Source: a phage
Length of the DNA: 51,099 nucleotides
Direction: 5' to 3' (one strand)
Sequence record: NC_129764.1
The notes beneath the pieces are model-generated. The model saw nothing but the letters and a program-made list of their open reading frames with translations. It had not been told where the DNA came from and searched no databases. The position numbers and the translations under genes are program-made. Of the stretch, positions 1 through 51,025 are shown one piece after another (position 1 is the first letter of the stretch; every line of letters begins with the position of its first letter).

Positions 1-530
1 ATTGCATGGTGTGCAACAGTTGGTTGATTTGTTGCTGAGATTGCAATGATTGTGAGAGGGGGGATTTAGTGTTACCCGGTTCGCCTGGTGGTCATCTCCA
101 TTTTTAGCAAAACGTGCTATTCGTCTATGCGGTAGTTGTAATTGTCGTAATAGTTGTATACCATTAGGGGTGTTACAAAATGGCCCGAGAATCGATAGGC
201 CTATAGATAATAAAATATCTATATATAATAATAAGATAGATAATATATATTTATTTATTTATTATATTATATATTGGTATGTAATCGGCGTAATAGGTGC
301 AACCGCATTTTTTGAGGGTGGCATATATTTCGTGATGCATAGTATAAAAAACATACTATTCCGCGCGCATAAATAGATGTTCTTACTTTTATAGAAAAAG
401 TCGGTTGCATCGGTTGCACTGGTTACAAAAATAAAAAATGCAGCTATAGACATTGACGCGCCTGACGTTGTAGCTGTAACATGTTTTTCGAAGTTGAAAG
501 TTACACCCATAGACAACGAGGTATAGACAA
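1..530. promoter_or_regulatory. AT-rich non-coding control region with GTTACA/GTTGCA-type repeats and (TATAGATAATA)-like tracts
   Basis: No convincing ORF; AT tracts 200-290; repeated gttaca/gttgca/tgtaac words; shares GGTGTTACAAAAT (169-181) with the region at 30868-30881. Confidence 0.5.
103..121 (-). promoter_or_regulatory. dyad motif copy (rc reads AATAGCACGTTTTGCTAAA), minus orientation
   Basis: Direct sequence match to the recurrent motif; points toward window start. Confidence 0.5.
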
Positions 531-1108: not shown

Positions 1109-1348
1109 ATGAGCAAAATTAAGCATGACGACCTGAAAGGTGTATTAATGCAACTCAATCCAGGTCAAGCATTCCAACTTAACCCCGAGACGTTCGGATT
1201 CAATGGGAGCTATCGCACAACATTTGAGTTCATCCGGTATGTAAAGAGGGAGTTAGGAATTGATGTTATTCAAGCTGGGCTTATTAATGGCATTCAAACA
1301 TTCATATTTAAGCCAAGCGAGATTCGTTGCCTCACTCTGATGAAATAG
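1109..1348 (+). CDS. hypothetical protein (79 aa)
   Basis: ORF with RBS ggagaaataatcATG; stop TAG lies inside the dyad motif. Confidence 0.55.
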   Translation: MSKIKHDDLKGVLMQLNPGQAFQLNPETFGFNGSYRTTFEFIRYVKRELGIDVIQAGLINGIQTFIFKPSEIRCLTLMK

Positions 1349-1364
1349 CACTTTTTGTTAAAGC
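1344..1364 (+). promoter_or_regulatory. dyad motif copy AATAGCACTTTTTGTTAAAGC
   Basis: Sequence match; intergenic. Confidence 0.6.
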
Positions 1365-1617: not shown

Positions 1618-2088
1618 ATGGCGACAATTACCGTATTCCTGGCTAAAGATGAGATTGACGATGAAATGTCATTCTTCGCATTCGAGCACAAAACCGGATC
1701 GCACTGGCACACTTACAGCCATTACACGGTTATCCCAATCGAAGCGTACGACGGCGAACTGCTCACTGATAAACTTAGTAATTTCATTGAAGATGTTAAT
1801 GCTAGCGGTGGCTGCGAGTGGAAAGAAGATCACGAAGTTATTCGAATGCTTGAGATGGTCAACCCGGTCCGTCTTGAGTCGTTCGAGCTTGATGCTGATG
1901 TGTCTATTAAGGTGAGAAAGTCTGGTGAGTTATTGCCAGGGATGCGCGTGCTGACTGGTTACTCGGGCCGTAAAGTGTGGCGCACTGTGTCGAAGGTTCG
2001 CCAGCGTTCAGAAACATGCTACAGCATATTCTTTGAGGATGGCTGGAATGTGATGGCTGGTAGCGAAGTAAAATATCTCACCAAATAG
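1618..2088 (+). CDS. hypothetical protein (156 aa)
   Basis: ORF; stop TAG is part of the motif at 2084. Confidence 0.6.
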   Translation: MATITVFLAKDEIDDEMSFFAFEHKTGSHWHTYSHYTVIPIEAYDGELLTDKLSNFIEDVNASGGCEWKEDHEVIRMLEMVNPVRLESFELDADVSIKVRKSGELLPGMRVLTGYSGRKVWRTVSKVRQRSETCYSIFFEDGWNVMAGSEVKYLTK

Positions 2089-2104
2089 CACGAATTGTTA
2101 AAAC
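2084..2104 (+). promoter_or_regulatory. dyad motif copy AATAGCACGAATTGTTAAAAC
   Basis: Sequence match; followed by hairpin ggggta-N12-tacccc containing TGATATAGT. Confidence 0.65.
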
Positions 2105-2917: not shown

Positions 2918-3109
2918 ATGGCTGATTTTATGCACCAAATGATTGCAGTATTCAAAGGCAGCGATGACCAGGAGGTGAAAGAGTGCTTTACTGTCGATAA
3001 GCCTTATAACGCATCGCTAACCAGCTTCGGGAATATCTCATTGCTTGATGATAATGGCGACCCCTGGATATTCGACGAAGATACTGATTGCTTCGAAATT
3101 AAAGAATAG
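2918..3109 (+). CDS. small acidic protein (63 aa)
   Basis: ORF, RBS ggatgttaaaATG; stop TAG in motif. Confidence 0.5.
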   Translation: MADFMHQMIAVFKGSDDQEVKECFTVDKPYNASLTSFGNISLLDDNGDPWIFDEDTDCFEIKE

Positions 3110-3125
3110 CACTTTTTGTTAAAAC
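3105..3125 (+). promoter_or_regulatory. dyad motif copy AATAGCACTTTTTGTTAAAAC
   Basis: Sequence match; downstream hairpin ggggtt-N-aacccc with TATAGT. Confidence 0.65.
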
Positions 3126-3180: not shown

Positions 3181-3669
3181 ATGAAAATCAAATTACTTTG
3201 CACTGGCGGTTACAAGGGCTTTACCCGAGATCTGGAAGCAGACCCTATCGTGGTTGATGCGGTGAAGTGTGATTCCAGTACCGGAGGCTACCGCGTTAAG
3301 GTTGACGATCTGGTTAAAGCTGGCGTGTACGATCTGGACTATGGACTTTCGGTTAGCCCTGTATTTGGTCCGGCTGACTTTAACGAGAATGACGGAACGA
3401 TGTTCTTCTTCGAATGGGAAGTCCAAGCAAATCCTAAGCCGCGCAAGGTTCGACTTCTCAGTAATGGCGGCTACCCGCTGCGACAAGGCTATGAGAACCG
3501 CACATTCCCAGTTATCGTGGACTTTGAAGAAATTACTAGCAATCTGGCATACGTTAACGATGAGCAGTTGCGAGCCGTTGGATTTGTCGGCGGGATGAAT
3601 AAAGAGCCGCTATGCTTCTTCCATTGTAAAGCCGAGCCGTTCGATATTGAGTGCGAGTTAGTATACTAA
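3181..3669 (+). CDS. hypothetical protein (162 aa)
   Basis: ORF, RBS gaggacgatagcATG. Confidence 0.6.
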   Translation: MKIKLLCTGGYKGFTRDLEADPIVVDAVKCDSSTGGYRVKVDDLVKAGVYDLDYGLSVSPVFGPADFNENDGTMFFFEWEVQANPKPRKVRLLSNGGYPLRQGYENRTFPVIVDFEEITSNLAYVNDEQLRAVGFVGGMNKEPLCFFHCKAEPFDIECELVY

Positions 3670-3686
3670 GCACGAATTGTTAAAAT
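3666..3686 (+). promoter_or_regulatory. dyad motif variant CTAAGCACGAATTGTTAAAAT
   Basis: Sequence match; followed 22 nt later by TGGTATAAT. Confidence 0.6.
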
Positions 3687-4226: not shown

Positions 4227-4375
4227 TGACTGCATGGGTTTTGATTATCTTAATGAGTACCGGGCCAGATCACGTATACATGGAAAGCCAACAATCATGC
4301 AACAAGGCACGGGAAGTTATCGCAGAAAATAAGCCGTTCGGATATGAAGTAAAAACTATGTGTGTTAAACGATAG
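4226..4375 (+). CDS. small protein (49 aa)
   Basis: TAATG overlap with upstream stop; hydrophobic N-terminus; stop TAG in motif; below track cutoff. Confidence 0.3.
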   Translation: MTAWVLIILMSTGPDHVYMESQQSCNKAREVIAENKPFGYEVKTMCVKR

Positions 4376-4390
4376 CACGAATTGCTAAAC
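4372..4390 (+). promoter_or_regulatory. dyad motif copy ATAGCACGAATTGCTAAAC
   Basis: Sequence match; downstream hairpin aaggcca-tttgatatag-tggcctt. Confidence 0.65.
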
Positions 4391-5546: not shown

Positions 5547-5765
5547 ATGGCTACTATCATGACAGCAGAAGATGCAGCGCGTGACGCAGTGGAAGGAATG
5601 CGCCCAAATACCTCCAGAATCGCACACTACTACAAATCTGAGGTGTCGGCAGTGCAATTGGTCCACGAAATTTTAAGGCTCCCACAAGTCGATTCAGCGC
5701 GCGTGGTGACGTGCTTAAAAAATTATTTTTGCATCACTATTAAAACGAATAGCACGAATTGCTAA
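5547..5765 (+). CDS. hypothetical protein (72 aa)
   Basis: ORF; overlaps an alternative 36-aa ORF at 5452-5562. Confidence 0.35.
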   Translation: MATIMTAEDAARDAVEGMRPNTSRIAHYYKSEVSAVQLVHEILRLPQVDSARVVTCLKNYFCITIKTNSTNC

Positions 5766-5768
5766 AAC
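5748..5768 (+). promoter_or_regulatory. dyad motif copy AATAGCACGAATTGCTAAAAC
   Basis: Sequence match; hairpin ggggaatgcgctatgattcccc downstream. Confidence 0.65.
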
Positions 5769-5822: not shown

Positions 5823-6269
5823 ATGAAACATTTGATTTGCATTGAAACGCCTAACGATGAATACACCCTGCACGGCATCGGAATGTTCAAAGGTCACTAC
5901 ATGACAGCAAGTATTTATGATGCGCGTCGCGGCGATGGCGATCTGATGATTACCTCAAAAGAGGTTAATCCGTACATCATGCAGAATCTTGGAAATAACG
6001 AATATATGGCCTACGGCTGCAACGCGGTGTATAAGCATATCAAGATCCGCAAGCGTGTCGTGCGAGCATTCAAGAAAATTGCAATGAAACACTGGAAGAT
6101 GAGCAAGAAAGATGCCGGACATTGGGCGCGTAACGTTGCAGATTCATACTTCTACCGTAACGGCGAGTCATGCTACTTCCTGATCGATGAAATGATGGAA
6201 AATTATAGCGGCACATTCTGCCAAAGTGATTTTGACGCCTGGGCTGACTACGAGGTCGATTGCTGGTAA
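5823..6269 (+). CDS. hypothetical protein (148 aa)
   Basis: ATG with RBS gagggaacactcATG. Confidence 0.55.
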   Translation: MKHLICIETPNDEYTLHGIGMFKGHYMTASIYDARRGDGDLMITSKEVNPYIMQNLGNNEYMAYGCNAVYKHIKIRKRVVRAFKKIAMKHWKMSKKDAGHWARNVADSYFYRNGESCYFLIDEMMENYSGTFCQSDFDAWADYEVDCW

Positions 6270-6288
6270 TAGCACGAATTGCTAAAAC
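6268..6288 (+). promoter_or_regulatory. dyad motif copy AATAGCACGAATTGCTAAAAC
   Basis: Sequence match; hairpin aagggca-tttgttagaa-tgccctt. Confidence 0.65.
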
Positions 6289-6994: not shown

Positions 6995-7567
6995 ATGAAA
7001 ACAGCTATCATTTTAAACGGCGCGCCGGGCGCAGGCAAAGACACTATCGGATGCATCCTGGCCGACACTTACGATCACGTAGCGCTACGCAGCTTCAAGG
7101 CGCCAATGTTTGAGATTGCCCGAGCAATATTGGGTGAGACTAATTTCGAATACTTCATGTTCTTGTATGAGGACCGTCGATATAAAGAAGAGCCAGCATC
7201 AATCCTGAACGGTAAAAGCCCGCGCCAGTTTATGATCTGGATTAGCGAGGAGGTCATCAAGCCGCAGTTCGGAAATCGCTTCTTCGGTATGCGAGCGGAA
7301 AGCAAGGTGAAAGAGTCTCACTCCCTTTCGGTATTTACTGACGGTGGATTCAAAGACGAGATCTTGCAGATGATTGAAGGTGATATCCAGGTAAAGCTAT
7401 GTCGAATCCATCGCAACGGTTGCAACTTTGACAACGACAGCCGCGACTATATCTATCTTGACGATATGATCGGGGTCAACGGTTATCAGGAATGTGACTT
7501 CTTTTCTGTCGAAGGCCATCCAGAAATTACCGCCCAGCACATAGCCGCCACGTTCATCAACAAATAG
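6995..7567 (+). CDS. P-loop kinase (190 aa), possibly polynucleotide or nucleotide kinase
   Basis: Walker A GAPGAGKDT at N-terminus. Confidence 0.6.
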   Translation: MKTAIILNGAPGAGKDTIGCILADTYDHVALRSFKAPMFEIARAILGETNFEYFMFLYEDRRYKEEPASILNGKSPRQFMIWISEEVIKPQFGNRFFGMRAESKVKESHSLSVFTDGGFKDEILQMIEGDIQVKLCRIHRNGCNFDNDSRDYIYLDDMIGVNGYQECDFFSVEGHPEITAQHIAATFINK

Positions 7568-7583
7568 CACGAATTGCTAAAAC
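7563..7583 (+). promoter_or_regulatory. dyad motif copy AATAGCACGAATTGCTAAAAC
   Basis: Sequence match; stop TAG embedded. Confidence 0.65.
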
Positions 7584-7639
7584 GTCGGTGGGGTGATTTG
7601 ATATAGTTACCTCATCGACAACGAAGAGAGAAAATCGAA

Positions 7640-9393: not shown

Positions 9394-9413
9394 AATAGCA
9401 CTAAATGTTAAAC
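9394..9413 (+). promoter_or_regulatory. dyad motif variant AATAGCACTAAATGTTAAAC
   Basis: Sequence match upstream of packaging genes. Confidence 0.55.
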
Positions 9414-15255: not shown

Positions 15256-15270
15256 TTAGTGTTTAATATG

Positions 15271-15300
15271 GGGACTATCCTTTTGGGTAGTCCTTTTTTT
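15271..15300 (+). terminator. intrinsic terminator
   Basis: gggactatcc-tttt-gggtagtcc stem followed by T7. Confidence 0.6.
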
Positions 15301-15314
15301 ATGGAGAAAATACT

Positions 15315-16082
15315 ATGCCTTACGAAAATTTAATGTTACGCCCGGCGTGCCCTGGTAATCTTTCGGATACTTCAACCTACAATATTGATGGATCTTGTGT
15401 TGCCCAAGGCGATATTGAGTTCGGCTCCGCTGTTAAAGTTATCGGTATTGTTGACGGCGTTAAGGTTGTTTCCACGCTTACTGATGGTGAAACACCTTAC
15501 GGAATCGCTTTCCGTTCCCAATATGAACACCTGAGCGGTAAAATCCTCGACGGTGAAGTTTGCAACGTCGTTTCTCATGGTCGCGTGTGGACGCTAACTT
15601 CTCTTGATGAAGCTCCGGCCTTGTTCTCAAAGTTACAATTTGGATCTGGTGGTGTTGTTACTGGTAGCTCTGGTTCCGTAGGTTGGACTTTTGCTGGTGG
15701 ATTTGTTAAGCACGAGGACGGGTACATTATTGAGGTTCAGGTTAAGCAAAATGCCTTTATTGTTCCACCTCCACCCCCTCCCGTGGTTCTTGTTGAGTCT
15801 GCGACGATTACAACTAACAAGGAGAGTCCTCAGCCAAACAATGCACCTGTGCAATTTAACGTTGCTGTAAAACCTGACAATGCCACCGATAAAACTGGCG
15901 TGTGGTCTGTTGATGCTGAAAATATTGCGACAATAGATCCAAAATCTGGCGTTCTTACTCCAATTGGTGGAGATGCGGCAGGTAGCGTAATCGTAAATTG
16001 GACGGCTAACGATGCCAGCAAAACTAAAGAATCGATCACTTATGTTTTTGATGCTGCGCCAACCGAAGAAGAAGAGTCATAA
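15315..16082 (+). CDS. capsid-associated protein, paralogue 2, with poly-Pro linker and Ig-like (Big_2-like) C-terminal domain (255 aa)
   Basis: Paralogue of 14779-15255; PPPPPPVV linker; C-terminal segment resembles bacterial Ig-like domain. Confidence 0.5.
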   Translation: MPYENLMLRPACPGNLSDTSTYNIDGSCVAQGDIEFGSAVKVIGIVDGVKVVSTLTDGETPYGIAFRSQYEHLSGKILDGEVCNVVSHGRVWTLTSLDEAPALFSKLQFGSGGVVTGSSGSVGWTFAGGFVKHEDGYIIEVQVKQNAFIVPPPPPPVVLVESATITTNKESPQPNNAPVQFNVAVKPDNATDKTGVWSVDAENIATIDPKSGVLTPIGGDAAGSVIVNWTANDASKTKESITYVFDAAPTEEEES

Positions 16083-16101
16083 CACAAAAATACTTTGACG
16101 C

Positions 16102-16120
16102 TTTAACAAAAAGTGCTATT
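16102..16120 (-). promoter_or_regulatory. dyad motif copy, reversed (plus strand TTTAACAAAAAGTGCTATT)
   Basis: Sequence match; lies between TTGACG and TATTAT upstream of the capsid gene. Confidence 0.55.
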
Positions 16121-16126
16121 ATTGAA

Positions 16127-16153
16127 GCCGTGAACATAATCACGGCTTTTTTT
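16127..16153 (+). terminator. intrinsic terminator or attenuator in capsid gene leader
   Basis: gccgtgaacataatcacggc stem followed by T7. Confidence 0.6.
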
Positions 16154-16174
16154 ATTAACTAAGGAGAAGTAATC

Positions 16175-17134
16175 ATGACTACTAAAAAATTTGATGAAGC
16201 AGATAAGAGCAATGTTGAAATGTATCTGATCCAGGCTGGCGTAAAACAGGATGCAGCCGCAACGATGGGTATCTGGACCGCTCAGGAACTACACCGCATC
16301 AAAAGCCAGTCCTATGAAGAAGACTACCCGGTAGGCTCCGCACTTCGAGTATTCCCGGTTACTACCGATCTATCTCCGACCGACAAGACGTTTGAGTATA
16401 TGACCTTTGATAAGGTTGGTACTGCGCAGATTATCGCTGACTATACAGATGACCTGCCTCTGGTTGATGCGCTTGGTACTTCTGAGTTCGGTAAGGTGTT
16501 CCGCTTGGGTAACGCGTACCTGATTTCAATCGACGAAATCAAAGCAGGTCAGGCAACTGGCCGACCGCTGTCAACCCGCAAGGCAAGCGCGTGTCAGTTA
16601 GCGCATGACCAACTGGTTAACCGTCTGGTGTTCAAAGGTTCCGCGCCGCACAAGATCGTGTCCGTGTTCAACCATCCGAACATCACCAAAATTACCTCCG
16701 GTAAGTGGATGAATGTCTCAACTCCGAAGCCGGAAACGGCTGAAGCGGAATTGACTCAGGCGATTGAAACCATCGAGACGATTACTCGCGGTCAGCATCG
16801 TGCAACCAACATTCTGATCCCGCCGTCCATGCGTAAGGTTCTGGCGATCCGTATGCCTGAAACTACCATGTCTTACCTGGACTATTTCAAGTCTCAGAAT
16901 GCTGGTATCGAAATCGACTCTATCGCAGAGCTTGAAGATATCGACGGTGCGGGTACTAAAGGCGTACTGGTGTACGAAAAAAATCCGATGAATATGTCCA
17001 TCGAGATCCCGGAAGCATTTAACATGCTGCCAGCGCAGCCGAAAGACCTTCACTTTAAAGTGCCTTGCACCTCCAAGTGTACTGGCCTTACAATTTATCG
17101 TCCGATGACTATTGTCTTAATCACTGGCGTGTAA
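16175..17134 (+). CDS. major capsid protein (319 aa)
   Basis: Strong RBS aaggagaagtaatcATG; flanked by terminators; position in head module. Confidence 0.7.
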   Translation: MTTKKFDEADKSNVEMYLIQAGVKQDAAATMGIWTAQELHRIKSQSYEEDYPVGSALRVFPVTTDLSPTDKTFEYMTFDKVGTAQIIADYTDDLPLVDALGTSEFGKVFRLGNAYLISIDEIKAGQATGRPLSTRKASACQLAHDQLVNRLVFKGSAPHKIVSVFNHPNITKITSGKWMNVSTPKPETAEAELTQAIETIETITRGQHRATNILIPPSMRKVLAIRMPETTMSYLDYFKSQNAGIEIDSIAELEDIDGAGTKGVLVYEKNPMNMSIEIPEAFNMLPAQPKDLHFKVPCTSKCTGLTIYRPMTIVLITGV

Positions 17135-17141
17135 TATTATA

Positions 17142-17168
17142 GGGACTAACTTAGTTGGTCCCTTTTTT
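17142..17168 (+). terminator. intrinsic terminator after capsid gene
   Basis: gggactaac-tta-gttggtccc stem followed by T6. Confidence 0.7.
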
Positions 17169-17183
17169 ATTGGAGAAATCAAA

Positions 17184-17474
17184 ATGGCTAAAGAAAAAAC
17201 TGTTGTTATCGTAAACGTTGGTGTAGCGCTTCAGATGTTCCGTCTTGAAGATGGCTCATTCGCAAAGGTTCTCCCGGATGAAGAGGTGACACTCCCAGCA
17301 TCCGCACTTGAATTGCCCGGGCTGCGTTGCTTGATTGCTCGCGAAGAAATCGAAGTAAAAGACGACAGTGCCACCAACCGGGAAATCCGCGCAGAGATGG
17401 CTAAACTTAAAAAACCTGATCCGTGGGATAAGATGAGCGTAAAAGAGCTTGAAGACGGCGGCGAATACTATTAA
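17184..17474 (+). CDS. hypothetical head-associated protein (96 aa)
   Basis: ORF with RBS ggagaaatcaaaATG. Confidence 0.5.
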   Translation: MAKEKTVVIVNVGVALQMFRLEDGSFAKVLPDEEVTLPASALELPGLRCLIAREEIEVKDDSATNREIRAEMAKLKKPDPWDKMSVKELEDGGEYY

Positions 17475-17481
17475 TCAACAA

Positions 17482-17504
17482 GGCGCTTAATGCGCCTTTT
17501 TTTT
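17482..17504 (+). terminator. intrinsic terminator
   Basis: ggcgcttaatgcgcc stem followed by T8. Confidence 0.7.
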
Positions 17505-17517
17505 ATAGGTGGAAATT

Positions 17518-17931
17518 ATGGATCAAGAAACATTAAACAAAGTGGTCGAGCAAATGAGAAAGCTGGTTCCGGCACTTCGCAAGGTTCCAGACGAAACGCT
17601 TTATGCATGGGTAGAAATGGCTGAGCTATTTGTATGCCAGAAGACCTTTAAAGATGCATACGTCAAGGCGCTTGCTCTTTATGCATTGCACCTTGCTTTC
17701 CTTGATGGGGCGCTAAAAGGTGAAGATGAGGATCTTGAATCGTACTCACGACGCGTTACGTCATTCTCCCTGAGCGGTGAATTTAGCCAGACTTTTGGAG
17801 AGGTGACGAAGAACCAGTCAGAGAACATGATGCTTTCGACGCCGTGGGGTAAGATGTTCGAACAGCTTAAAGTGCGACGCCGTGGTCGATTCGCATTAAT
17901 GACAGGACTCCGTGGAGGATGCCACCAATGA
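17518..17931 (+). CDS. head completion / head-tail connector protein (137 aa)
   Basis: Synteny; ATG with RBS aggtgg. Confidence 0.5.
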   Translation: MDQETLNKVVEQMRKLVPALRKVPDETLYAWVEMAELFVCQKTFKDAYVKALALYALHLAFLDGALKGEDEDLESYSRRVTSFSLSGEFSQTFGEVTKNQSENMMLSTPWGKMFEQLKVRRRGRFALMTGLRGGCHQ

Positions 17932-18299
17932 ACTACTCACAGATCGAAAGGATGGCTCGCAAAGGCGTGGCTTTCTTCACCGATGCATCAAGACCTATGA
18001 ACCTGATAAAGCAAGGTGAATACGGATATGATGAAAACGGATTCGAGATCCCACCGATGGAACAGGTTATTCCAATATCCGGCGCGACGCGAAGACCGAA
18101 CGCGCGTGAGATTGACGGGGAGACTATCCGCGCCTCAGACCTTTTGGGGATCTTCAATAACGACCATGAAATAAACGAAGGTGACTATATAGAGATTGAC
18201 GGCGTTCGTCATGTTGTCGTTGATGCTCGCCCGGTTCAGGCGTCACTGAAACCAGTCGCCTATCGCCCAGTATTGCGGAGGGTATCAGTAGGTGGCTAA
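17919..18299 (+). CDS. head-tail joining protein (126 aa)
   Basis: Synteny; overlapping start. Confidence 0.5.
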   Translation: MPPMNYSQIERMARKGVAFFTDASRPMNLIKQGEYGYDENGFEIPPMEQVIPISGATRRPNAREIDGETIRASDLLGIFNNDHEINEGDYIEIDGVRHVVVDARPVQASLKPVAYRPVLRRVSVGG

Positions 18300-18735
18300 T
18301 TATCAGATTCGTAGATTTCAAGGTGAGATTGATGCGTGGATTAAGGCCGCTGAAAGCACGTTAGAACATTCCATTGAGATATTTGTAAGGGATGTTCACG
18401 ACGCGCTCGTTAGCCGTTCTCCCGTCGACACGGGGCGCTTTAAGGGTAACTGGCAGATAACTTTTAACGAAATCCCTAACTACGCATTAAATCGATACGA
18501 TAAAACTGGCGGCGTCGTCCGTAGTGAGGAGCAAGCCAAAACTTATGGCATGTTCAGCCGTGGGGGCGCGATAACATCCGTTCACTTCTCAAACATGTTG
18601 ATTTATGCAAACTCTCTTGAGTACGGTCATTCACAACAAGCACCAAACGGCGTCGTCGGGCTGGTTGCATTGAGATTGCGATCGTATATGGCAGACGCAA
18701 TAAAGCAAGCAAGGAGACAACAAAATGCACTATGA
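18292..18735 (+). CDS. tail completion protein (147 aa), GTG start
   Basis: Synteny. Confidence 0.5.
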   Translation: MANYQIRRFQGEIDAWIKAAESTLEHSIEIFVRDVHDALVSRSPVDTGRFKGNWQITFNEIPNYALNRYDKTGGVVRSEEQAKTYGMFSRGGAITSVHFSNMLIYANSLEYGHSQQAPNGVVGLVALRLRSYMADAIKQARRQQNAL

Positions 18736-19123
18736 GTTATCAGCGGCGGCGCGAGCCGCCTTTCTGTCGAAGTATAGAGACTTTCCTCACTACATGGAAA
18801 ACAGGAACTTTACACCACCGAAGGATGGCGGCATGTGGCTAAGGTTCAACTACATTGAAGGGGATACGCTTTATCTATCAATTGACAGAAAGTGTAAATC
18901 TTACATTGCAATAGTTCAGATCGGAGTTGTGTTCCCTCCTGGTTCCGGCGTTGATGAGGCAAGATTGAAAGCAAAAGAGATTGCTGATTTTTTCAAAGAT
19001 GGTAAAATGCTTAACGTTGGTTATATTTTCGAAGGTGCAATCGTGCATCAAATTGTTAAACACGAAAGCGGATGGATGATTCCGGTTCGCTTTACAGTAC
19101 GAGTAGATACAAAGGAGACTTAA
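18725..19123 (+). CDS. tail terminator-like protein (132 aa)
   Basis: Synteny directly upstream of major tail gene. Confidence 0.5.
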   Translation: MHYELSAAARAAFLSKYRDFPHYMENRNFTPPKDGGMWLRFNYIEGDTLYLSIDRKCKSYIAIVQIGVVFPPGSGVDEARLKAKEIADFFKDGKMLNVGYIFEGAIVHQIVKHESGWMIPVRFTVRVDTKET

Positions 19124-19124
19124 T

Positions 19125-19793
19125 ATGCACTTACCAAATGGCGCGCAAATTTTCGTGGAAACCTCTCGCGGAGAAGAGATCGAGGCGACCGCTGTCACTA
19201 ACGCAAAAAATCCTGTTGCTACAGTTGCATCTAAGGGCGACTTGGCAAAAGGTGATTACGTTATTGTAACTCAGTCAACTTGGGCTAAGATGGTTAGTCG
19301 AGTACTTATTGTTACCGATGCTCAGGAAACAAGCATTACTCTTGCTGGAATTGACACTACTGATACTCTTGTTTTCCCGGCTGGCGGTACGATGAGCTTT
19401 GCAAAAGTTACTGGCTGGACTGAGATTCCTTGCGTACAGGAGATTGGTCAGGACGGCGGTGAGCAGCAGTACTACACTTATCAGTGTTTGTCAGACGATA
19501 AAGAGCAGCAGATCCCGACGTTTAAATCTGCAATCTCGCTAACTTACACCTTCGCGCACGAATTTGATAACCCGATCTACCCTATTCTGCGTAAGCTGGA
19601 TTCTTCTGGTCAGGTAACTGCGGTTCGTATGTATGTTCCAAAAGCGAACGAGATGCGCATGTGGGCTGGCATCTTGTCTTTTAACGACATTCCGTCTACG
19701 CAAGTAAACGAAATGGAAACGGTACAACTAGCCGTATCCCTGAAGGGTGATTTCACTTTCGTTTCATCCTCTCTGGCATCACCTGGTGCCTAA
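19125..19793 (+). CDS. major tail protein (222 aa)
   Basis: Position before chaperone and tape measure; followed by terminator. Confidence 0.6.
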   Translation: MHLPNGAQIFVETSRGEEIEATAVTNAKNPVATVASKGDLAKGDYVIVTQSTWAKMVSRVLIVTDAQETSITLAGIDTTDTLVFPAGGTMSFAKVTGWTEIPCVQEIGQDGGEQQYYTYQCLSDDKEQQIPTFKSAISLTYTFAHEFDNPIYPILRKLDSSGQVTAVRMYVPKANEMRMWAGILSFNDIPSTQVNEMETVQLAVSLKGDFTFVSSSLASPGA

Positions 19794-19805
19794 ATCATAT
19801 CCACA

Positions 19806-19826
19806 GGGGGCTTGCGCCCCCTTATT
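19806..19826 (+). terminator. intrinsic terminator
   Basis: gggggcttgcgccccc stem followed by ttatt. Confidence 0.6.
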
Positions 19827-19866
19827 CATTTCTGTAAAATCATCGTATCAACTTTTCACTATTCTC

Positions 19867-19886
19867 TTTTAACAAAAAGTGCTATT
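19867..19886 (-). promoter_or_regulatory. dyad motif copy, reversed (plus strand TTTTAACAAAAAGTGCTATT)
   Basis: Sequence match directly abutting the RBS aaccaatcaggag of the tail chaperone gene. Confidence 0.55.
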
Positions 19887-19906
19887 AACCAATCAGGAGA
19901 AATATC

Positions 19907-20224
19907 ATGGCTAAATTTAATTTCGTTCTTGGTCAACTTCCAGACTTCAAACTTCCAGTCACCTTCACCATGCCTAACGGTGAAGATGCAACGATCATTT
20001 TCACTGTACGCCACCTTTCCAGTAAAGAAGTTCAGGATATGTATGCCAACCAGGGAGAAATGAACGATAGCGAGTTCATTACCAAGATCGCGTCAGGATG
20101 GAACCTTGAAGAAGAATTTAACGAAGAAAATGCGCGAAAACTGGTTCAGTATTATCCTTCAGCAGCGTACAATCTGACAGCGACTTACATCAAGGCTCTC
20201 GCCGGACACCGCGCAAAAAACTAA
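19907..20224 (+). CDS. tail assembly chaperone (G-like, 105 aa)
   Basis: Position between major tail and tape measure; ends at slippery site. Confidence 0.65.
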   Translation: MAKFNFVLGQLPDFKLPVTFTMPNGEDATIIFTVRHLSSKEVQDMYANQGEMNDSEFITKIASGWNLEEEFNEENARKLVQYYPSAAYNLTATYIKALAGHRAKN

Positions 20225-20541: not shown

Positions 20542-20542
20542 G

Positions 20543-20563
20543 CCGCCGTTTGGCGGTTTTTTT
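20543..20563 (+). terminator. weak intrinsic terminator
   Basis: ccgcc-gttt-ggcgg stem followed by T7. Confidence 0.5.
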
Positions 20564-35714: not shown

Positions 35715-35734
35715 AATAGCACGAATTGCTAAAT
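35715..35734 (+). promoter_or_regulatory. dyad motif copy AATAGCACGAATTGCTAAAT (reads reversed relative to the tail fibre gene)
   Basis: Sequence match about 20 nt upstream of the tail fibre start; TTGCAA-N17-TAAAAT on minus strand just upstream. Confidence 0.55.
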
Positions 35735-35774
35735 ACAGATTTTATCATTGTGCTATGGGTCTTGCAACGTGCAA

Positions 35775-35796
35775 TAAAAAACCGCCAGAAGGCGGT
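35775..35796 (-). terminator. intrinsic terminator after primase gene
   Basis: accgccagaaggcggt stem with A6 on plus (T-run on minus). Confidence 0.65.
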
Positions 35797-36731
35797 TAGA
35801 GTAGGTCGCTTGCTGAGAATAATTTGGCTTGCATTCCTGAGCGGTATCCTCCCGGATTTGGGATGATTATCTTCAATTGTCGATCGTCTGCCATATACAA
35901 AGTCTCTTTGTCTGAAGGTTCGCACGCCACGCGCATCTCCCGATCCCCTTTGTATCTGTACGCAACCATTTCTAGATTCTCAGGAGTAAAGCAGGCCCAT
36001 ACCTCTTGCTTTGTGTGAAAGGAAATGTGCTGAGCATCAATCCAGTTCAGGCATAAGTAGATCGCCTTTTCTGTTTTACCAGTCACGGCAACCGAGCAAC
36101 TCGTGTATTTCTTCGCGTAAAATGACTCCCTTCCTTCATCATCAATAATCAAAATATTGCAAAACTCGTCATCAAGCCCATCCTCATGCACAAGTTGACA
36201 CGGGATAGTGTGAAATATGCTCTCCCCGCCATCTTCGCGGCGTTTTACACCAACGTCGAATGACTCAGTGGGTAGTGACTCAAACACGCTCAACGGCGTA
36301 TTTACACGCTTCTCTGTGCGCTCCATAACCTTCATCACCGCCTCATGTTCAGCCATCATGACATTGACACCTGACACCGGAGTCCTGCGTGCTTTCTTGT
36401 TTGCCTTAACAATGTATTCCTGAGGAACCTTTCCGAGAAATCTCCCCAGGATGTTTATACATTCACTGTACGGCATACCAGTTAATTTCATCAACCAACC
36501 GATCCCGGAGTCGTTGCCGCATGAGTTGCAGATCGCGCCTCCGTCACCGGGGGCATTAAGTTTATCCGTCCATCGAAAACGGTCTTTCCCACCGCAGTGA
36601 GGGCAAGGTTGGTGCTTCTTATTGAAAACCTCGTTCTGCAATCCGCATATGGACTGTAACGCCTCGCGCCACATCCCTTTCATGTAAGGCAAAACATCCT
36701 CTTTCTGAAACATCATAAACTCTTCGTTCAC
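35796..36731 (-). CDS. putative DNA primase with N-terminal zinc ribbon (311 aa)
   Basis: CPHCGG...CNSCG primase-type zinc ribbon pattern. Confidence 0.55.
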   Translation of the reverse strand: MNEEFMMFQKEDVLPYMKGMWREALQSICGLQNEVFNKKHQPCPHCGGKDRFRWTDKLNAPGDGGAICNSCGNDSGIGWLMKLTGMPYSECINILGRFLGKVPQEYIVKANKKARRTPVSGVNVMMAEHEAVMKVMERTEKRVNTPLSVFESLPTESFDVGVKRREDGGESIFHTIPCQLVHEDGLDDEFCNILIIDDEGRESFYAKKYTSCSVAVTGKTEKAIYLCLNWIDAQHISFHTKQEVWACFTPENLEMVAYRYKGDREMRVACEPSDKETLYMADDRQLKIIIPNPGGYRSGMQAKLFSASDLL

Positions 36732-36788: not shown

Positions 36789-36809
36789 GTTTTAACTAAA
36801 AATGCTATT
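36789..36809 (-). promoter_or_regulatory. dyad motif variant (minus strand AATAGCATTTTTAGTTAAAAC)
   Basis: Sequence match; encodes the C-terminal NSIFS-stop of the upstream gene; followed on minus strand by hairpin acgcgtag/ctacgcgt plus T-run. Confidence 0.55.
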
Positions 36810-37244: not shown

Positions 37245-37256
37245 CTTAATTCTCCT

Positions 37257-37277
37257 ATAGCACTTTTTGCTAAAAAC
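37257..37277 (+). promoter_or_regulatory. dyad motif copy ATAGCACTTTTTGCTAAAAAC
   Basis: Sequence match at the divergent junction between the HTH gene and helicase. Confidence 0.6.
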
Positions 37278-39357: not shown

Positions 39358-39770
39358 TTACAGACAAAGGCGATTACTTAGAGTTTTACGAGCGAGATCC
39401 TAGCGACACGAGAAAGGAGGACGCTCATCAAGTAGATTGCGTATCCTGGTTGAAATACAATTTTCCTCAGCTTCTATTTTGGCACACAGTTAATGAAGGT
39501 GAAAAAACAATAACGTCGGCGCTAAGGGATGAACAGTCTGGATTACTCAAAGGTGTGTCAGACTTTGTTATTCTGATTGGTATAAACTCACGCTACCCGT
39601 TTGCAGCTATCGAACTAAAGAGGGTTAATAAGTCCGGCAAAGGAAAGGCATCACCAGTCAGCGATAAGCAAAGGGAGTTTCTCAAAAAGGTTCGTGATCG
39701 CGGAGGATTCTCTGCCGTCGCATACGGATTTGAGCAATTCAAGCTGGCAATATACGATTTAACGAAATAG
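39354..39770 (+). CDS. VRR-NUC domain nuclease (138 aa)
   Basis: GVSDFVIL ... AIELKR ... SDKQREFL pattern typical of VRR-NUC. Confidence 0.6.
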   Translation: MITDKGDYLEFYERDPSDTRKEDAHQVDCVSWLKYNFPQLLFWHTVNEGEKTITSALRDEQSGLLKGVSDFVILIGINSRYPFAAIELKRVNKSGKGKASPVSDKQREFLKKVRDRGGFSAVAYGFEQFKLAIYDLTK

Positions 39771-39786
39771 CACTTTTTGTTAAAAC
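39766..39786 (+). promoter_or_regulatory. dyad motif copy AATAGCACTTTTTGTTAAAAC
   Basis: Sequence match; stop TAG embedded; hairpin tgccggaatggaatctggca downstream. Confidence 0.65.
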
Positions 39787-40551: not shown

Positions 40552-40799
40552 TGAGCGAAAAAATGGTTCCTGTTAAATTAACTGATCAAGGGTTATGGCT
40601 TCTTTATCGCGCTACGTGCTGCGAAATTATGGAGCGAAACGGATTAACTCAAGATGTTATTGGTTGCGATTTATGGGAGTTTACAAGTTCTCTTGATATG
40701 TCGTTCGATGAGATAAAGAATAAACATATCGAGCATTGGCCTTCAATCATTCAGAAAGACGTAGAAGAACTTAAATCCGACACGATCTTACAGCACTAA
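40548..40799 (+). CDS. hypothetical protein (83 aa)
   Basis: ATGA overlap with methylase gene. Confidence 0.5.
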   Translation: MMSEKMVPVKLTDQGLWLLYRATCCEIMERNGLTQDVIGCDLWEFTSSLDMSFDEIKNKHIEHWPSIIQKDVEELKSDTILQH

Positions 40800-40809
40800 T
40801 TGCTAAAAC
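40791..40809 (+). promoter_or_regulatory. dyad motif variant CAGCACTAATTGCTAAAAC
   Basis: Sequence match; hairpin acccggcgaaagtcgggt followed by TATAGT. Confidence 0.55.
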
Positions 40810-44539: not shown

Positions 44540-44560
44540 GTTTTAACAAAAAGTGCTATT
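44540..44560 (-). promoter_or_regulatory. dyad motif copy (minus strand AATAGCACTTTTTGTTAAAAC)
   Basis: Sequence match; hairpin acccgatctcgtatcgggt followed by TATATT. Confidence 0.65.
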
Positions 44561-46702: not shown

Positions 46703-46722
46703 GTTTTGCAAAAAGTGCTATT
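46703..46722 (-). promoter_or_regulatory. dyad motif variant (minus strand AATAGCACTTTTTGCAAAAC)
   Basis: Sequence match about 55 nt upstream of the P-loop gene. Confidence 0.55.
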
Positions 46723-47200: not shown

Positions 47201-47223
47201 AATATTAACAAATCGTGCTATTT
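47201..47223 (-). promoter_or_regulatory. dyad motif variant (minus strand AAATAGCACGATTTGTTAATATT)
   Basis: Sequence match; hairpin aaggtca-tttgataaag-tgacctt. Confidence 0.6.
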
Positions 47224-47662: not shown

Positions 47663-47879
47663 TTTTAATTCCTTTGTTTCGTTTGGTGTGGGAGTAATAT
47701 ACCTTACTCCATATTTATTGTCTTTAGCAATTGGTGCTATCAGTATTCTGAAATTACTTTACACTCTTTGATTGTTCCACCTAGCACTACTTTCTGCATC
47801 ATTGCTTTTTGGTGGCTATCATAAACGCGAACATTTTTTACGCTGTTAAATTTGCCAGTATAGAAAGTGTGAATATAAA

Positions 47880-48781: not shown

Positions 48782-48838
48782 AACTCTTTCCTCGCTTGCT
48801 GTTGATGGGATGACTATACCAGCCATCCCGGATGAGCG

Positions 48839-48857
48839 TTTAGCAAAAAGTGCTATT
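48839..48857 (-). promoter_or_regulatory. dyad motif copy (minus strand AATAGCACTTTTTGCTAAA)
   Basis: Sequence match; hairpin gggatggctggtatagtcatccc. Confidence 0.65.
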
Positions 48858-49458: not shown

Positions 49459-49479
49459 GTTTTAACAAAAAGTGCTATT
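49459..49479 (-). promoter_or_regulatory. dyad motif copy (minus strand AATAGCACTTTTTGTTAAAAC)
   Basis: Sequence match. Confidence 0.65.
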
Positions 49480-49922: not shown

Positions 49923-49943
49923 GTTTTAACAAAAAGTGCTATT
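49923..49943 (-). promoter_or_regulatory. dyad motif copy (minus strand AATAGCACTTTTTGTTAAAAC)
   Basis: Sequence match; downstream hairpin and leader catcgaaacgag. Confidence 0.65.
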
Positions 49944-50938: not shown

Positions 50939-51006
50939 GTCGATTGCTCCTGATTGGTTGATGTGATGAATCATACCTAGTCGACATGGATGAGTCGTTA
51001 GCAAAA

Positions 51007-51025
51007 AATGCTATTCCAATAATTG
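51007..51025 (-). promoter_or_regulatory. dyad motif variant (minus strand AATAGCATTTTTTGCTAAC)
   Basis: Sequence match about 70 nt upstream of the 50938 start. Confidence 0.55.

What the first reader, a model, noticed from the sequence alone, without database searches (positions are those of the whole stretch)
16091..16174. Reversed motif copies embedded in the promoter or leader of late structural genes
Upstream of the major capsid gene the motif is in reversed orientation and lies in the spacer of a sigma70-like promoter (TTGACG, 16 nt, TATTAT, where GTGCTATTAT also provides a TGn extended -10). It is followed by a terminator-like hairpin (16127-16153) inside the leader. Reversed copies also abut the RBS of the tail chaperone gene (19867-19886) and the tail fibre gene (35715-35734, read on the minus strand). 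A factor binding the dyad would overlap RNA polymerase here, so the same protein could activate early cassettes yet repress or time late genes. The leader hairpin suggests attenuation control of capsid expression.
Basis: inference. Interest (0 to 1): 0.6.

Follow-up and report, generated by a model that had tools for sequence, protein, structure and literature searches.

The report
Host stress-regulator boxes inside phage late promoters
The repeated motif of this T1-like phage matches the binding site of the host stress regulators MarA/SoxS/Rob, and its position suggests it turns early genes on and holds back the capsid, tail and fibre promoters, which offers a testable answer to what these repeats do.

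Summary
At 16095-16122 there is a near-consensus sigma-70 promoter (TTGACG, 16 nt, TGcTATTAT). Its spacer is a reversed copy of the phage's roughly 20-nt repeat. This layout is conserved in 63 related loci, down to 57% capsid identity.

The repeat is the known T1/TLS "21-nt direct repeat" of unknown function. It is not a true dyad. It is an exact match to the published marbox (GCANNWWNTGNNAAA), the asymmetric site bound by MarA/SoxS/Rob/RamA monomers: 24 exact matches against 0.9 expected.

About 20 forward copies lie exactly 20 nt upstream of an extended -10 with no -35. That is the class II geometry of E. coli micF. The reversed capsid copy sits in the same register as the marbox-like sequence in the E. 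coli rob promoter, a promoter reported to be repressed by MarA. The fibre copy covers about -2 to +18 of its promoter. The tail-chaperone copy drives a conserved antisense class II promoter that overlaps the late promoter.

The phage encodes no AraC-type protein. A related Pantoea phage with the same boxes encodes a MarA homologue.

The "leader hairpin" is the upstream terminator. The predicted transcription start lies inside it, so attenuation is not supported. Factor binding and the sign of regulation remain inferred.

The parts
16081..16094 (+). Conserved TAACACAAAAA tract just upstream of the -35. It resembles a proximal UP element and contains the stop codon of the upstream gene.
   Evidence: it stays in a fixed register relative to the -35 across genera even where the upstream gene differs.
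16095..16100 (+). -35 hexamer TTGACG of the major capsid promoter.
   Evidence: Relatives have TTGCAC, TTGAAC or TTGACC, and the spacer is always 16 nt.
16101..16120 (-). Reversed (backward) marbox-type repeat, AATAGCACTTTTTGTTAAAG on the minus strand. It fills the spacer and overlaps the extended -10.
   Evidence: exact match to GCANNWWNTGNNAAA at 16102-16116, minus strand. It is near-invariant in the cross-genus alignment and lies in the same register as the rob promoter sequence.
16114..16122 (+). Extended -10, TGcTATTAT (hexamer at 16117-16122).
   Evidence: The -7 T is kept at the capsid site in all genera but not at the other reversed copies.
16129..16129 (+). Predicted transcription start, plus or minus 1-2 nt. 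It lies inside the 5' arm of the hairpin.
   Evidence: Inferred from a 7-nt distance after the hexamer. That same distance carries a conserved A in 116 of 129 early promoters.
16124..16155 (+). Intrinsic terminator of the preceding transcription unit (stem 16124-16149, then a T-run).
   Evidence: 10 pairs plus T-run; -15.0 kcal/mol for the full hairpin, -6.5 from the predicted start; 5 of 8 pairs show compensatory changes.
16175..17134 (+). Major head protein gene.
   Evidence: phrog_264, E 5.5e-104.
19805..19822 (+). Terminator of the major tail gene. Its loop carries TTGCGC (19812-19817), which serves as the -35 of the next late promoter.
19835..19840 (+). -10 TAAAAT of the plus-strand late promoter for the chaperone and tape-measure genes. 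It lies 17 nt after TTGCGC, with a predicted start near 19847.
   Evidence: TAnAAT is conserved in all genera.
19842..19850 (-). Extended -10, TGaTACGAT, of an antisense class II marbox promoter. The predicted start is the A at 19835.
   Evidence: in 24 of 24 unique contexts TAnnnT lies exactly 20 nt from the box, 21 of 24 have TG, and 24 of 24 have A at +1.
19867..19886 (-). Reversed marbox-type repeat next to the Shine-Dalgarno sequence of the gene at 19907. It sits at about +21 to +40 of the late promoter and is forward for the antisense promoter.
35780..35797 (-). Terminator of the primase gene.
35739..35767 (-). Tail fibre promoter, TTGCAA, 17 nt, TGaTAAAAT. The predicted start is near 35732.
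   Evidence: 9/12 with TG. Conserved in Tunavirus-like loci.
35715..35734 (+). Marbox-type repeat reversed relative to the minus-strand fibre gene. It covers about -2 to +18 of the fibre promoter and lies 5 nt before the Shine-Dalgarno sequence.
1344..1363 (+). Forward marbox of an early class II-type promoter.
   Evidence: The -10 TATTAT lies 20 nt after the 15-mer.
2084..2103 (+). Forward marbox, early promoter.
   Evidence: TGaTATAGT lies at 20 nt.
3105..3124 (+). Forward marbox, early promoter.
3666..3685 (+). Forward marbox, early promoter.
   Evidence: TGgTATAAT lies at 20 nt.
4371..4390 (+). Forward marbox, early promoter.
5748..5767 (+). Forward marbox, early promoter.
6268..6287 (+). 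Forward marbox, early promoter.
7563..7582 (+). Forward marbox, early promoter.
9394..9413 (+). Forward marbox next to the ribosome-binding site of the small terminase gene. No -10 follows it.
36790..36809 (-). Weaker forward box upstream of the primase gene, followed by TAACAT at the class II distance.
37256..37275 (+). Forward marbox of the helicase promoter. It also lies downstream of the divergent canonical promoter at 37324-37296.
39766..39785 (+). Forward marbox, early/middle promoter.
40789..40808 (+). Forward marbox, early/middle promoter.
44541..44560 (-). Forward marbox (minus-strand genes), early promoter.
46703..46722 (-). Forward marbox, early promoter.
47203..47222 (-). Forward marbox, early promoter.
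47722..47741 (-). Forward marbox, early promoter.
48838..48857 (-). Forward marbox, early promoter.
49460..49479 (-). Forward marbox, early promoter.
49924..49943 (-). Forward marbox, early promoter.
50996..51015 (-). Forward marbox, first promoter of the minus-strand early arm.
102..121 (-). Marbox copy with no -10 behind it. It shares a 14-nt identical run with the E. coli mar operator marbox.

Best explanation
Architecture. The stretch 16091-16174 is the major capsid gene's own strong sigma-70 promoter. It has an A-tract, a -35 TTGACG, a 16-nt spacer and an extended -10 TGcTATTAT. It is fused to the intrinsic terminator of the preceding unit. Capsid transcripts are predicted to start inside the terminator's 5' arm and so escape it, while read-through transcripts from upstream are stopped.

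The motif. The promoter's spacer and extended -10 are a backward-oriented consensus marbox, the asymmetric 15-20 bp site bound by monomers of the AraC/XylS regulators MarA, SoxS, Rob and RamA. The same element in forward orientation lies exactly 20 nt upstream of extended -10 hexamers with no -35. That forms about 20 class II-type early promoters in this phage.

Proposed mechanism. A marbox-binding protein helps RNA polymerase at the early promoters. In this phage it is most likely a host protein, because no AraC-type gene is present. The same protein hinders RNA polymerase at three late promoters:
- Capsid: the box lies between -35 and -10, as in the E. coli rob promoter.
- Tail fibre: the box covers about -2 to +18.
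- Tail chaperone and tape measure: the box drives an antisense class II promoter whose -10 abuts that of the late promoter.

Late promoters would open when free factor falls, for example through titration by replicating phage DNA that carries about 25 boxes per genome.

Shown here: the sequence identity, the geometry, the conservation, and the overlap of terminator and promoter.
Inferred: that a protein binds, which protein it is, that its effect at late promoters is negative, and how the timing works.
For: Sequence match to the marbox:
- The published marbox GCANNWWNTGNNAAA has 24 exact matches in the window against 0.92 expected and a maximum of 3 in shuffles. Twenty-three of them are the repeat, including all three reversed copies.
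- The commonest core, GCACTTTTTGTTAAA, also fits GCAHWWWWTGYYAAA exactly.
- The position profile of 129 unique copies is asymmetric. It varies only where the marbox consensus is degenerate.

Geometry of the forward copies:
- The distance from the box to TAnnnT peaks sharply at 20 nt (129 contexts, next best 32).
- G at -14 occurs in 113 of 129 and A at +1 in 116 of 129, and there is no -35.
- E. coli micF has the same arrangement: a marbox, 20 nt, then TAGAAT.
- Published rules agree. Forward sites cluster near -41, and class II promoters lack a -35 but keep a canonical -10.

Comparison with E. coli promoters:
- The rob promoter reads CAGCAAAAAATGCTATTAT. The phage reads TAACAAAAAGTGCTATTAT, and L023 reads TAGCAAAAAATGCTATCAT, all in the same register relative to the -10.
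- The mar operator marbox shares a 14-nt identical run with window 102-121.
- A marbox in a promoter spacer represses pbpG.

Conservation:
- The capsid promoter plus box is conserved in 63 loci down to 57% capsid identity, always with a 16-nt spacer.
- The chaperone-site antisense promoter is conserved in 24 of 24 unique contexts.
- The fibre site is conserved in Tunavirus-like loci.

Who could read the box:
- No AraC-type domain was found in 30 window proteins, and tblastn found nothing.
- The Pantoea phage PSKM shares the T1-like head and replication modules. It has about 8 of the same box-20 nt-TAnnnT promoters and encodes a MarA-sized AraC protein. That protein hits Pfam HTH_18 at 3.7e-13, and its best solved-structure matches are MarA and RamA.
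- No Drexlerviridae record encodes a homologue of it.

Terminator.
Against: - No binding, expression or transcription-start data exist for any of these sites.
- T1-like phages grow well on laboratory E. coli in which MarA and SoxS are low and Rob is largely sequestered. The boxes therefore cannot be strictly required, and the extended -10 may give factor-independent activity.
- The sign at the capsid promoter is not settled by position alone. MarA bound at -16 to -30 inside the sigma-28 flgB promoter activates it.
- Details of rob repression (backward marbox between -35 and -10) are recalled from a paper that is not held here.
- Rogunavirus phiKP26 has the early boxes but no reversed boxes at its late promoters, so the late-promoter link is not universal in the family.
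Confidence: 0.5

Rival explanations
1. A phage-encoded helix-turn-helix regulator reads the repeat as a pseudo-dyad, TAGCA-N5-TGCTA. The candidate is the conserved Cro-like protein at 36795-37316 on the minus strand (phrog_2856). It would control the early and late promoters, and the resemblance to the marbox would be coincidental or convergent.
For: - The regulator exists and is conserved in Drexlerviridae and in the Pantoea phage PSKM.
- A 5-bp inverted repeat with a 5-bp spacer is present in many copies.
- One copy lies just downstream of the regulator operon's own promoter, as expected for autoregulation.
Against: - The conserved positions are asymmetric. GCAC faces TTG, and the dyad-breaking T in TTGTTA occurs in about 40% of copies, at a position where the marbox allows Y.
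- A symmetric dimer does not explain the strict orientation rule.
- The exact consensus match, the micF spacing, the rob-like register and the MarA homologue in PSKM would all have to be coincidences.
Confidence: 0.2
2. No trans-acting factor matters at the reversed copies. An inverted repeat copy was simply co-opted because its reverse complement supplies TGnTAT, an extended -10. At the chaperone and fibre genes it would only be an A/U-rich leader that helps translation.
For: - The reverse complement of AATAGCAC is GTGCTATT. The capsid site completes it to TATnAT with a conserved -7 T and adds a -35 at 16 nt.
- Rogunavirus does without reversed copies.
Against: - The whole 16-nt spacer is conserved across genera, including the distal TTTAA half, which RNA polymerase does not read. 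Only the positions that are degenerate in the marbox vary, for example AAAAA against ATTCG.
- The chaperone and fibre copies lack a -7 T, so they are not promoters in the sense direction, yet they are conserved in full.
Confidence: 0.15
3. The marbox factor activates the capsid promoter rather than repressing it. It would bind inside the core promoter and distort base pairing near the -10, as MarA does at flgBP2.
For: MarA bound at -16 to -30 of flgBP2 unpairs bases 5 bp either side of its site and activates transcription. The capsid box spans about -13 to -27.
Against: - The flgBP2 case is a sigma-28 promoter with a melting defect. The capsid promoter has a near-consensus -35 and an extended -10, so it should not need help.
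- The box overlaps the TG and TAT bases that sigma-70 must contact.
- The register equals that of the rob promoter sequence, which is reported to be repressed.
- Co-activation with early genes would give no temporal order.
Confidence: 0.1
4. The hairpin at 16124-16155 is a leader attenuator that tunes capsid expression.
For: It is a strong terminator-like hairpin between the promoter and the start codon, and it is structurally conserved.
Against: - It starts 1-2 nt after the -10 hexamer (0-3 nt across genera), so the predicted start lies in its 5' arm and only a stem of about 5 bp remains.
- No alternative antiterminator pairing was seen.
- Webervirus-like relatives place the terminator upstream of the promoter and have no leader hairpin.
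- The late region carries a terminator after almost every gene.
Confidence: 0.03

Closest known systems
E. coli rob promoter (repression by MarA/SoxS/Rob through a marbox between -35 and -10)
   Same: A backward marbox-like sequence abuts the -10 in the same register, and the extended -10 TGcTATTAT is identical. Sixteen of the 19 nt before and through the hexamer are identical to the window, and 17 of 19 to L023. It is a sigma-70 promoter.
   Different: The rob site lacks the AAA half, so the phage copies are better marboxes. The phage promoter has a stronger -35 and an A-tract. It drives a virion gene of a virulent phage. Repression of rob is recalled from Schneiders and Levy 2006, which is not held here.
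E. coli micF promoter and other class II MarA/SoxS/Rob/RamA promoters
   Same: A forward marbox, exactly 20 nt, then the -10 hexamer. There is no -35, and the box is centred near -41.
   Different: About 20 such promoters are packed into 51 kb. Nearly all have consensus boxes and mostly extended -10 elements, and they sit on a phage genome. Activation has not been shown.
21-nt direct repeats of phage TLS and other T1-like phages (German et al. 2024, PMC11447400)
   Same: The consensus is the same, aaATAGCACnnnTTGnTAAAA. The copies are intergenic and lie about 76 nt before start codons.
   Different: [quoted passage not shown] The inverted copies in late promoters and the marbox identity are not mentioned.
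Dibbivirus phages (Pantoea PSKM, AAM37; Xanthomonas DIBBI)
   Same: PSKM has the same box-20 nt-TAnnnT promoters in its early region, and T1-like head and replication modules.
   Different: They encode their own MarA-like protein, gp47. PSKM has no reversed box at its capsid gene. They are myoviruses.
MarA at the flgBP2 promoter (Klimova et al. 2026)
   Same: The marbox lies inside the core promoter, at -16 to -30.
   Different: It is sigma-28 dependent, the outcome is activation, and it sits 3 bp further from the -10.
Phage T4 middle promoters (MotA box replacing the -35; from general knowledge)
   Same: An activator box takes the place of the -35 in front of a good -10, giving a phage promoter class.
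   Different: T4 supplies MotA and AsiA itself, and the box position and sequence differ. No homologues were found here.

Membership tests
Marbox (MarA/SoxS/Rob/RamA binding site) | Matches the consensus GCANNWWNTGNNAAA / GCAHWWWWTGYYAAA. | tested here: met
   24 exact matches against 0.92 expected, including 16102-16116(-), 19868-19882(-) and 35719-35733(+).
Marbox (MarA/SoxS/Rob/RamA binding site) | Asymmetric site with a defined orientation (monomer binding). | tested here: met
   the profile is asymmetric (AATAGCAC against TTGYTAAAA). Variable positions coincide with the degenerate positions of the consensus.
Marbox (MarA/SoxS/Rob/RamA binding site) | Bound by MarA, SoxS, Rob or RamA protein. 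| not testable with these tools
   Needs gel-shift, footprinting or ChIP experiments. Indirect support: a related phage with the same boxes encodes a MarA homologue.
Class II MarA/SoxS/Rob promoter (forward copies) | Forward orientation, box centred near -41 and overlapping the -35 position. | tested here: met
   20 nt to the hexamer and a conserved A at +1 put the centre at about -40. micF has the identical spacing.
Class II MarA/SoxS/Rob promoter (forward copies) | No recognisable -35, canonical -10. | tested here: met
   low information at the -35 position. TAnnnT is present, with G at -14 in 113 of 129.
Class II MarA/SoxS/Rob promoter (forward copies) | Transcription increases when the factor is present. 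| not testable with these tools
   No expression data are available.
Marbox-repressed promoter (rob, pbpG, purA, hdeA type) | Marbox overlaps the core promoter or its spacer. | tested here: met
   the box spans about -27 to -13 of the capsid promoter.
Marbox-repressed promoter (rob, pbpG, purA, hdeA type) | Backward orientation between -35 and -10, as at rob. | tested here: met
   the register relative to TATTAT is the same. The published description of the rob marbox is recalled, not read.
Marbox-repressed promoter (rob, pbpG, purA, hdeA type) | The factor lowers transcription. | not testable with these tools
   The opposite outcome has a precedent at flgBP2.
T1/TLS 21-nt direct repeat | Consensus aaATAGCACnnnTTGnTAAAA. 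| tested here: met
T1/TLS 21-nt direct repeat | Oriented in the direction of transcription, about 76 nt before a start codon. | tested here: not met
   The three copies under study are inverted. Their near edge lies 54, 20 and 19 nt from the start codon.
Intrinsic terminator | G+C-rich hairpin followed by a T-run. | tested here: met
   16124-16149, 10 pairs, then TTTTATTAAC after the TTT that closes the stem. Covariation is shown.
Transcription attenuator | The transcript starts upstream of the complete terminator hairpin. | tested here: not met
   the predicted start lies in the 5' arm in every genus. This rests on a predicted start, not a mapped one.
Mycobacteriophage L5-type stoperator | Asymmetric sites inside transcription units, in one orientation, bound by the phage repressor. 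| tested here: inconclusive
   There is an orientation bias. However, most copies sit at a fixed promoter position, and the phage is virulent with no repressor identified.
Sigma-54 promoter (TGGCAC-N5-TTGCW) | GG and GC elements spaced as at -24 and -12. | tested here: not met
   Read from the sequence: TAGCAC-N3-TTGCT is 2 nt too short and lacks GG.

The most novel reading that the evidence does not exclude
T1-like phages wire their whole developmental programme to the host Mar/Sox/Rob stress regulators. About 25 consensus marboxes per genome recruit Rob, MarA or SoxS to fire the early promoters. The same factor blocks the capsid, fibre and tail promoters. As the phage DNA replicates, the growing number of boxes titrates the factor. 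That switches early genes off and late genes on, and it also drains the host's own mar/sox/rob regulon. The phage would thereby sense bile, oxidants or antibiotics through the host's own sensors.
Probability: 0.25. Interest if true: 0.85.

Novelty: new variant of a known kind. Interest (0 to 1): 0.72.

Why it matters
The function of the 21-nt repeats of T1-like phages is listed as an open question by the authors who described them. How T1, which has no RNA polymerase or sigma factor of its own, orders early and late transcription is also unknown.

Reading the repeat as a marbox turns both questions into simple experiments: gel shifts with MarA, SoxS and Rob, infection of a rob marA soxS mutant, and inducers such as salicylate, paraquat, dipyridyl or bile.

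If it holds, a classical and very common family of enterobacterial phages, many of them therapy candidates, would couple its gene expression to the host's antibiotic and stress-response regulators. That bears on combining phages with antibiotics and on phage behaviour in the gut.

It would also add a natural case in which one monomeric activator gives opposite outcomes purely through the position and orientation of its box.

Tried and rejected
- Other host-factor sites checked by eye against the repeat were rejected or left untested. These were IHF (WATCAANNNNTTR), Fis, the DnaA box, the NtrC site, sigma-54 (spacing 2 nt short) and Lrp (only the flanks of YAGHAWATTWTDCTR fit; recalled from memory and superseded by the exact marbox match).
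- Reading TTGYTA as a displaced -35 was rejected because 22 nt to the -10 is too far.
- An antisense promoter as a general explanation for the reversed copies was rejected. It holds at the chaperone site (24 of 24). At the capsid site only 2 of 33 contexts have a -7 T, and the fibre site is not conserved in this respect.
- A class I role for the reversed boxes was rejected. No promoter lies 50-70 nt downstream, because the coding sequence starts there.
- Phylogenetic profiling of the Cro-like regulator was uninformative, because it is present in both PSKM and Drexlerviridae.
- The fumC promoter comparison was ambiguous without a mapped start (19-20 nt).
- Schneiders and Levy 2006 could not be read.
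- Literature searches for transcriptomes of T1-like phages, or for any link between marboxes and these phages, found nothing.
- No terminal redundancy was found between the window ends.
Full report
**What the window is.** The 51,099-nt window is a T1-like siphovirus (Tunavirus, Drexlerviridae). The capsid region is 99.8% identical to Shigella phage ISF002 and Escherichia phage SA12KD. The gene at 16175-17134 is the major head protein. The gene at 19125-19793 is the major tail protein. The two small genes that follow it and precede the tape-measure gene occupy the position of the tail chaperone pair, although PHROGs labels their families 'tape measure'. The gene at 33569-35695 on the minus strand is a tail fibre.

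TTGACG lies at 16095-16100, followed by a 16-nt spacer and TGcTATTAT at 16114-22. The consensus scan rates it 10/12 with a TG, the only such site in 5.6 kb. The spacer holds a reversed copy of a repeated motif, a 20-mer at 16101-16120. Two more reversed copies lie just before the ribosome-binding sites of the gene at 19907 and of the fibre gene. The motif family is far beyond chance: 15 against 0.02 expected, and 24 against 1.5 expected.

**The motif is already described, but its function is not.** German et al. 2024 (PMC11447400) report a 21-nt direct repeat, aaATAGCACnnnTTGnTAAAA, in phage TLS. They also see it in T1, Rtp and Rogue1. [quoted passage not shown] They do not mention inverted copies.

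**Anatomy of the forward copies.** In the early arms of the window the motif points with the genes. It often overlaps the previous stop codon. It is followed at a fixed distance by a -10 hexamer. I pooled the window with the related loci and took unique contexts. The distance from the 15-nt core to TAnnnT has a sharp peak at 20 nt, with 129 contexts against 32 for the next best distance. G at -14 is present in 113 of 129. An A lies exactly 7 nt after the hexamer in 116 of 129, which fixes the likely start. There is no information at the -35 position. The motif therefore spans about -50 to -31 and is centred near -40.

**The motif is a marbox.** I first recalled this resemblance from memory and then tested it.
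- The published MarA ChIP-seq consensus is GCANNWWNTGNNAAA (PMC12052159), also written GCAHWWWWTGYYAAA (PMC6900184).
- Exact matches in the window number 24, against 0.92 expected and a maximum of 3 in 100 shuffles. Twenty-three are motif copies, including all three reversed ones.
- The commonest core, GCACTTTTTGTTAAA, fits both forms of the consensus exactly.
- The positions that vary among copies are those that are degenerate in the consensus. The conserved positions are asymmetric. That fits a site bound by a monomer with two helix-turn-helix motifs. It also explains why the motif looks like a dyad, since GCA-N5-TG is built into the consensus.
- As a rough after-the-fact correction, a random conserved 20-mer matches a given 11-position consensus at about 1e-6. 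Allowing for a few thousand factor, offset and strand trials, that is still about 0.004 (my own estimate). The geometry tests below are independent of it.

**Geometry tests against E. coli K-12.**
- At micF, the standard class II promoter, the marbox GCACTGAATGTCAAA is followed by exactly 20 nt and then TAGAAT. The annotated RNA 5' end lies 7 nt after the hexamer. This is the phage spacing.
- The papers state that class II sites are forward and overlap the -35, and that they cluster near -41. Class II promoters lack a -35 but keep a canonical -10. The phage early promoters meet all of these points.
- The mar operator marbox, GATTTAGCAAAACGTGGCAT, shares a 14-nt identical run with window 102-121.

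**The reversed copy at the capsid gene.** Relative to the predicted start, the 15-nt core spans about -27 to -13. Its GCAC end forms the TG of the extended -10, and the adjoining ATA supplies the TAT of the hexamer.
- The E. coli rob promoter has the same arrangement in the same register: CAGCAAAAAATGCTATTAT. The phage has TAACAAAAAGTGCTATTAT, and a related genus has TAGCAAAAAATGCTATCAT.
[quoted passage not shown] I could verify only the title.
- Repression of pbpG by a marbox in the promoter spacer is documented in a paper I could read.
- The whole promoter is conserved in 63 IMG/VR loci down to 57% capsid identity. The conserved parts are the A-tract, the -35, a spacer of invariably 16 nt that holds the box, and a -10 with its -7 T. 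In an alignment of 18 sequences from different genera, the first 28 columns are almost invariant while the rest averages 61%.
- The central bases of the box switch between AAAAA and ATTCG, just as the forward copies do. RNA polymerase does not read spacer sequence in this way, so something else constrains it.

**The other two reversed copies.**
- Fibre gene. A terminator is followed by TTGCAA, 17 nt and TGaTAAAAT. The box then covers about -2 to +18, the position of a classical operator.
- Gene at 19907. The terminator of the major tail gene carries TTGCGC in its loop. Seventeen nt later comes TAnAAT, conserved in all genera. The box follows 26 nt after that, next to the Shine-Dalgarno sequence.
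- Read on the other strand, the box at 19867-19886 is a complete class II promoter. TAnnnT lies at exactly 20 nt in 24 of 24 unique contexts. The middle of the hexamer varies freely. TG is present in 21 of 24 and A at +1 in 24 of 24.
- Its -10 lies one base from the -10 of the late promoter. The two predicted starts are about 12 bp apart and diverge, so the two polymerases would exclude each other.
- The same design, a marbox promoter one way and a -35 promoter the other, recurs at 37256-37324.
- The capsid and fibre sites have no conserved productive antisense -10.

**The hairpin.** It is a structurally conserved terminator, with 5 of 8 pairs showing compensatory changes. It begins 0-3 nt after the -10 hexamer in every genus. 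The predicted start falls in its 5' arm. Read-through RNA can form -11 to -15 kcal/mol in most genera (-15.0 in the window), while promoter-initiated RNA retains only -2 to -7.5 kcal/mol. Webervirus-like loci place the terminator before the promoter and have no leader hairpin. The late region has a terminator after almost every gene. I read the hairpin as the end of the upstream unit overlapping the start of the capsid unit, not as an attenuator. This rests on a predicted start.

**Who reads the box.**
- The window encodes no recognisable AraC-type protein. Pfam found none in 30 proteins, and tblastn found nothing.
- It does encode a conserved Cro-like regulator, which is the main rival reader.
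- The Pantoea phage PSKM (Dibbivirus) gives comparative support. It shares the T1-like head and replication genes and has about 8 promoters of the same box-20 nt-TAnnnT design. It also encodes a 136-residue AraC-family protein.
- That protein matches Pfam HTH_18 and HTH_AraC. Its best matches among solved structures are MarA and RamA. One box sits at its stop codon.
- Among 50,697 phage records this protein is found only in Dibbivirus and in unrelated phages, and in no Drexlerviridae.
- The Cro-like regulator is also present in PSKM, so it cannot be excluded on these grounds.
- Rogunavirus phiKP26 has 12 exact boxes in early regions but none at its late promoters. A distant Vibrio phage has none.

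**Mechanism and its limits.** The most likely reading is that a MarA-family monomer binds the boxes. In this phage it would be a host protein. Rob is constitutive and abundant but largely sequestered. MarA and SoxS are inducible and short-lived. The factor would aid RNA polymerase at early promoters and hinder it at the three late promoters. Relief could come from titration by replicating genomes or from loss of the unstable factors. This last step is inference only.

Arguments against:
- There are no binding or expression data.
- These phages grow on unstressed laboratory hosts, so the boxes cannot be essential.
- MarA inside a sigma-28 promoter activates it, so the sign at the capsid promoter is not settled.
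- The late-promoter boxes are not universal in the family.

**Novelty.** The held library contains no paper that links marboxes to these phages. The kind of element is known, and so is the repeat. What is new is their identity with each other, the inverted copies in late promoters, and the implied coupling of a virulent phage's programme to the host mar/sox/rob regulators.

Noticed in passing
window 2104-2140, 3125-3160, 4391-4420, 5768-5800, 6288-6315, 7583-7615, 47170-47200(-), 48800-48835(-): In about 12 of 20 early promoters the -10 hexamer sits in the loop of a G+C-rich inverted repeat whose 3' arm is the discriminator. In 4 others the hairpin lies between the box and the -10. None has a T-run. 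A relative's record annotates them as terminators. Transcripts from the promoter itself would lack the hairpin, while read-through transcripts would carry it. The purpose is unknown.
   Followed up: partly
window, just after early promoter starts, e.g. 2136-2147 and 7612-7623: A conserved leader, CATCGA(C/A)AACGA, begins at the predicted start of many early transcripts.
   Followed up: no
window 19835-19886: A fully conserved antisense class II marbox promoter points into the major tail gene. It shares its -10 region with the late promoter of the chaperone and tape-measure genes. It predicts an early antisense RNA over the 3' end of the major tail gene.
   Followed up: yes
window 37256-37324: This is a bidirectional promoter. 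A marbox-type promoter for the helicase gene (-10 TATTAT at 37298-37303) overlaps a canonical TTGAAT-17-TATAAT promoter on the other strand for the regulator and primase operon. The box lies just downstream of the start of the latter.
   Followed up: partly
window 16081-16094 and the homologous stretch in L002-L063: On the antisense strand of the capsid promoter, TGnTA lies at the class II distance from the box in 28 of 33 contexts, but the key -7 T is present in only 2 of 33. It may be a by-product of the stop codon and A-tract, or it may be an unproductive polymerase trap.
   Followed up: partly
window 9394-9413, 23806-23825, 26054-26073: Forward boxes also occur in the late region with no promoter at the class II distance. 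One abuts the ribosome-binding site of the small terminase gene. One lies at a stop codon, with TAGAAT 31 nt downstream beyond a terminator. A weak one abuts the ATG of the 1150-residue tail protein.
   Followed up: no
L087 (Pantoea phage PSKM) 36886-37296: A phage-borne MarA/RamA-like protein of 136 residues is followed directly by a marbox-type promoter. It is restricted to Dibbivirus among 50,697 phage records.
   Followed up: yes
L084 (E. coli K-12 rob promoter), minus strand, about 60-110 nt upstream of the rob ATG: The host rob promoter and the phage capsid promoter share the extended -10 TGCTATTAT and most of the preceding spacer. The rob upstream region also holds a micF-like forward box, CACTGAATGCTAAAAC.
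   Followed up: partly
window 36795-37316 (-): This is the only annotated-type transcriptional regulator of the phage. It has a Cro/YdaS-like helix-turn-helix and belongs to phrog_2856 (E 4e-76). It is conserved in Rogunavirus and in PSKM. Its true start is probably at 37244, as annotated in SA12KD.
   Followed up: partly
window 15270-20560: The late region carries an intrinsic terminator after almost every gene: 15270, 16124, 17141, 17480, 18745, 19805 and 20540. Expression of most structural genes must therefore rely on read-through or on promoters that overlap the terminators.
   Followed up: no
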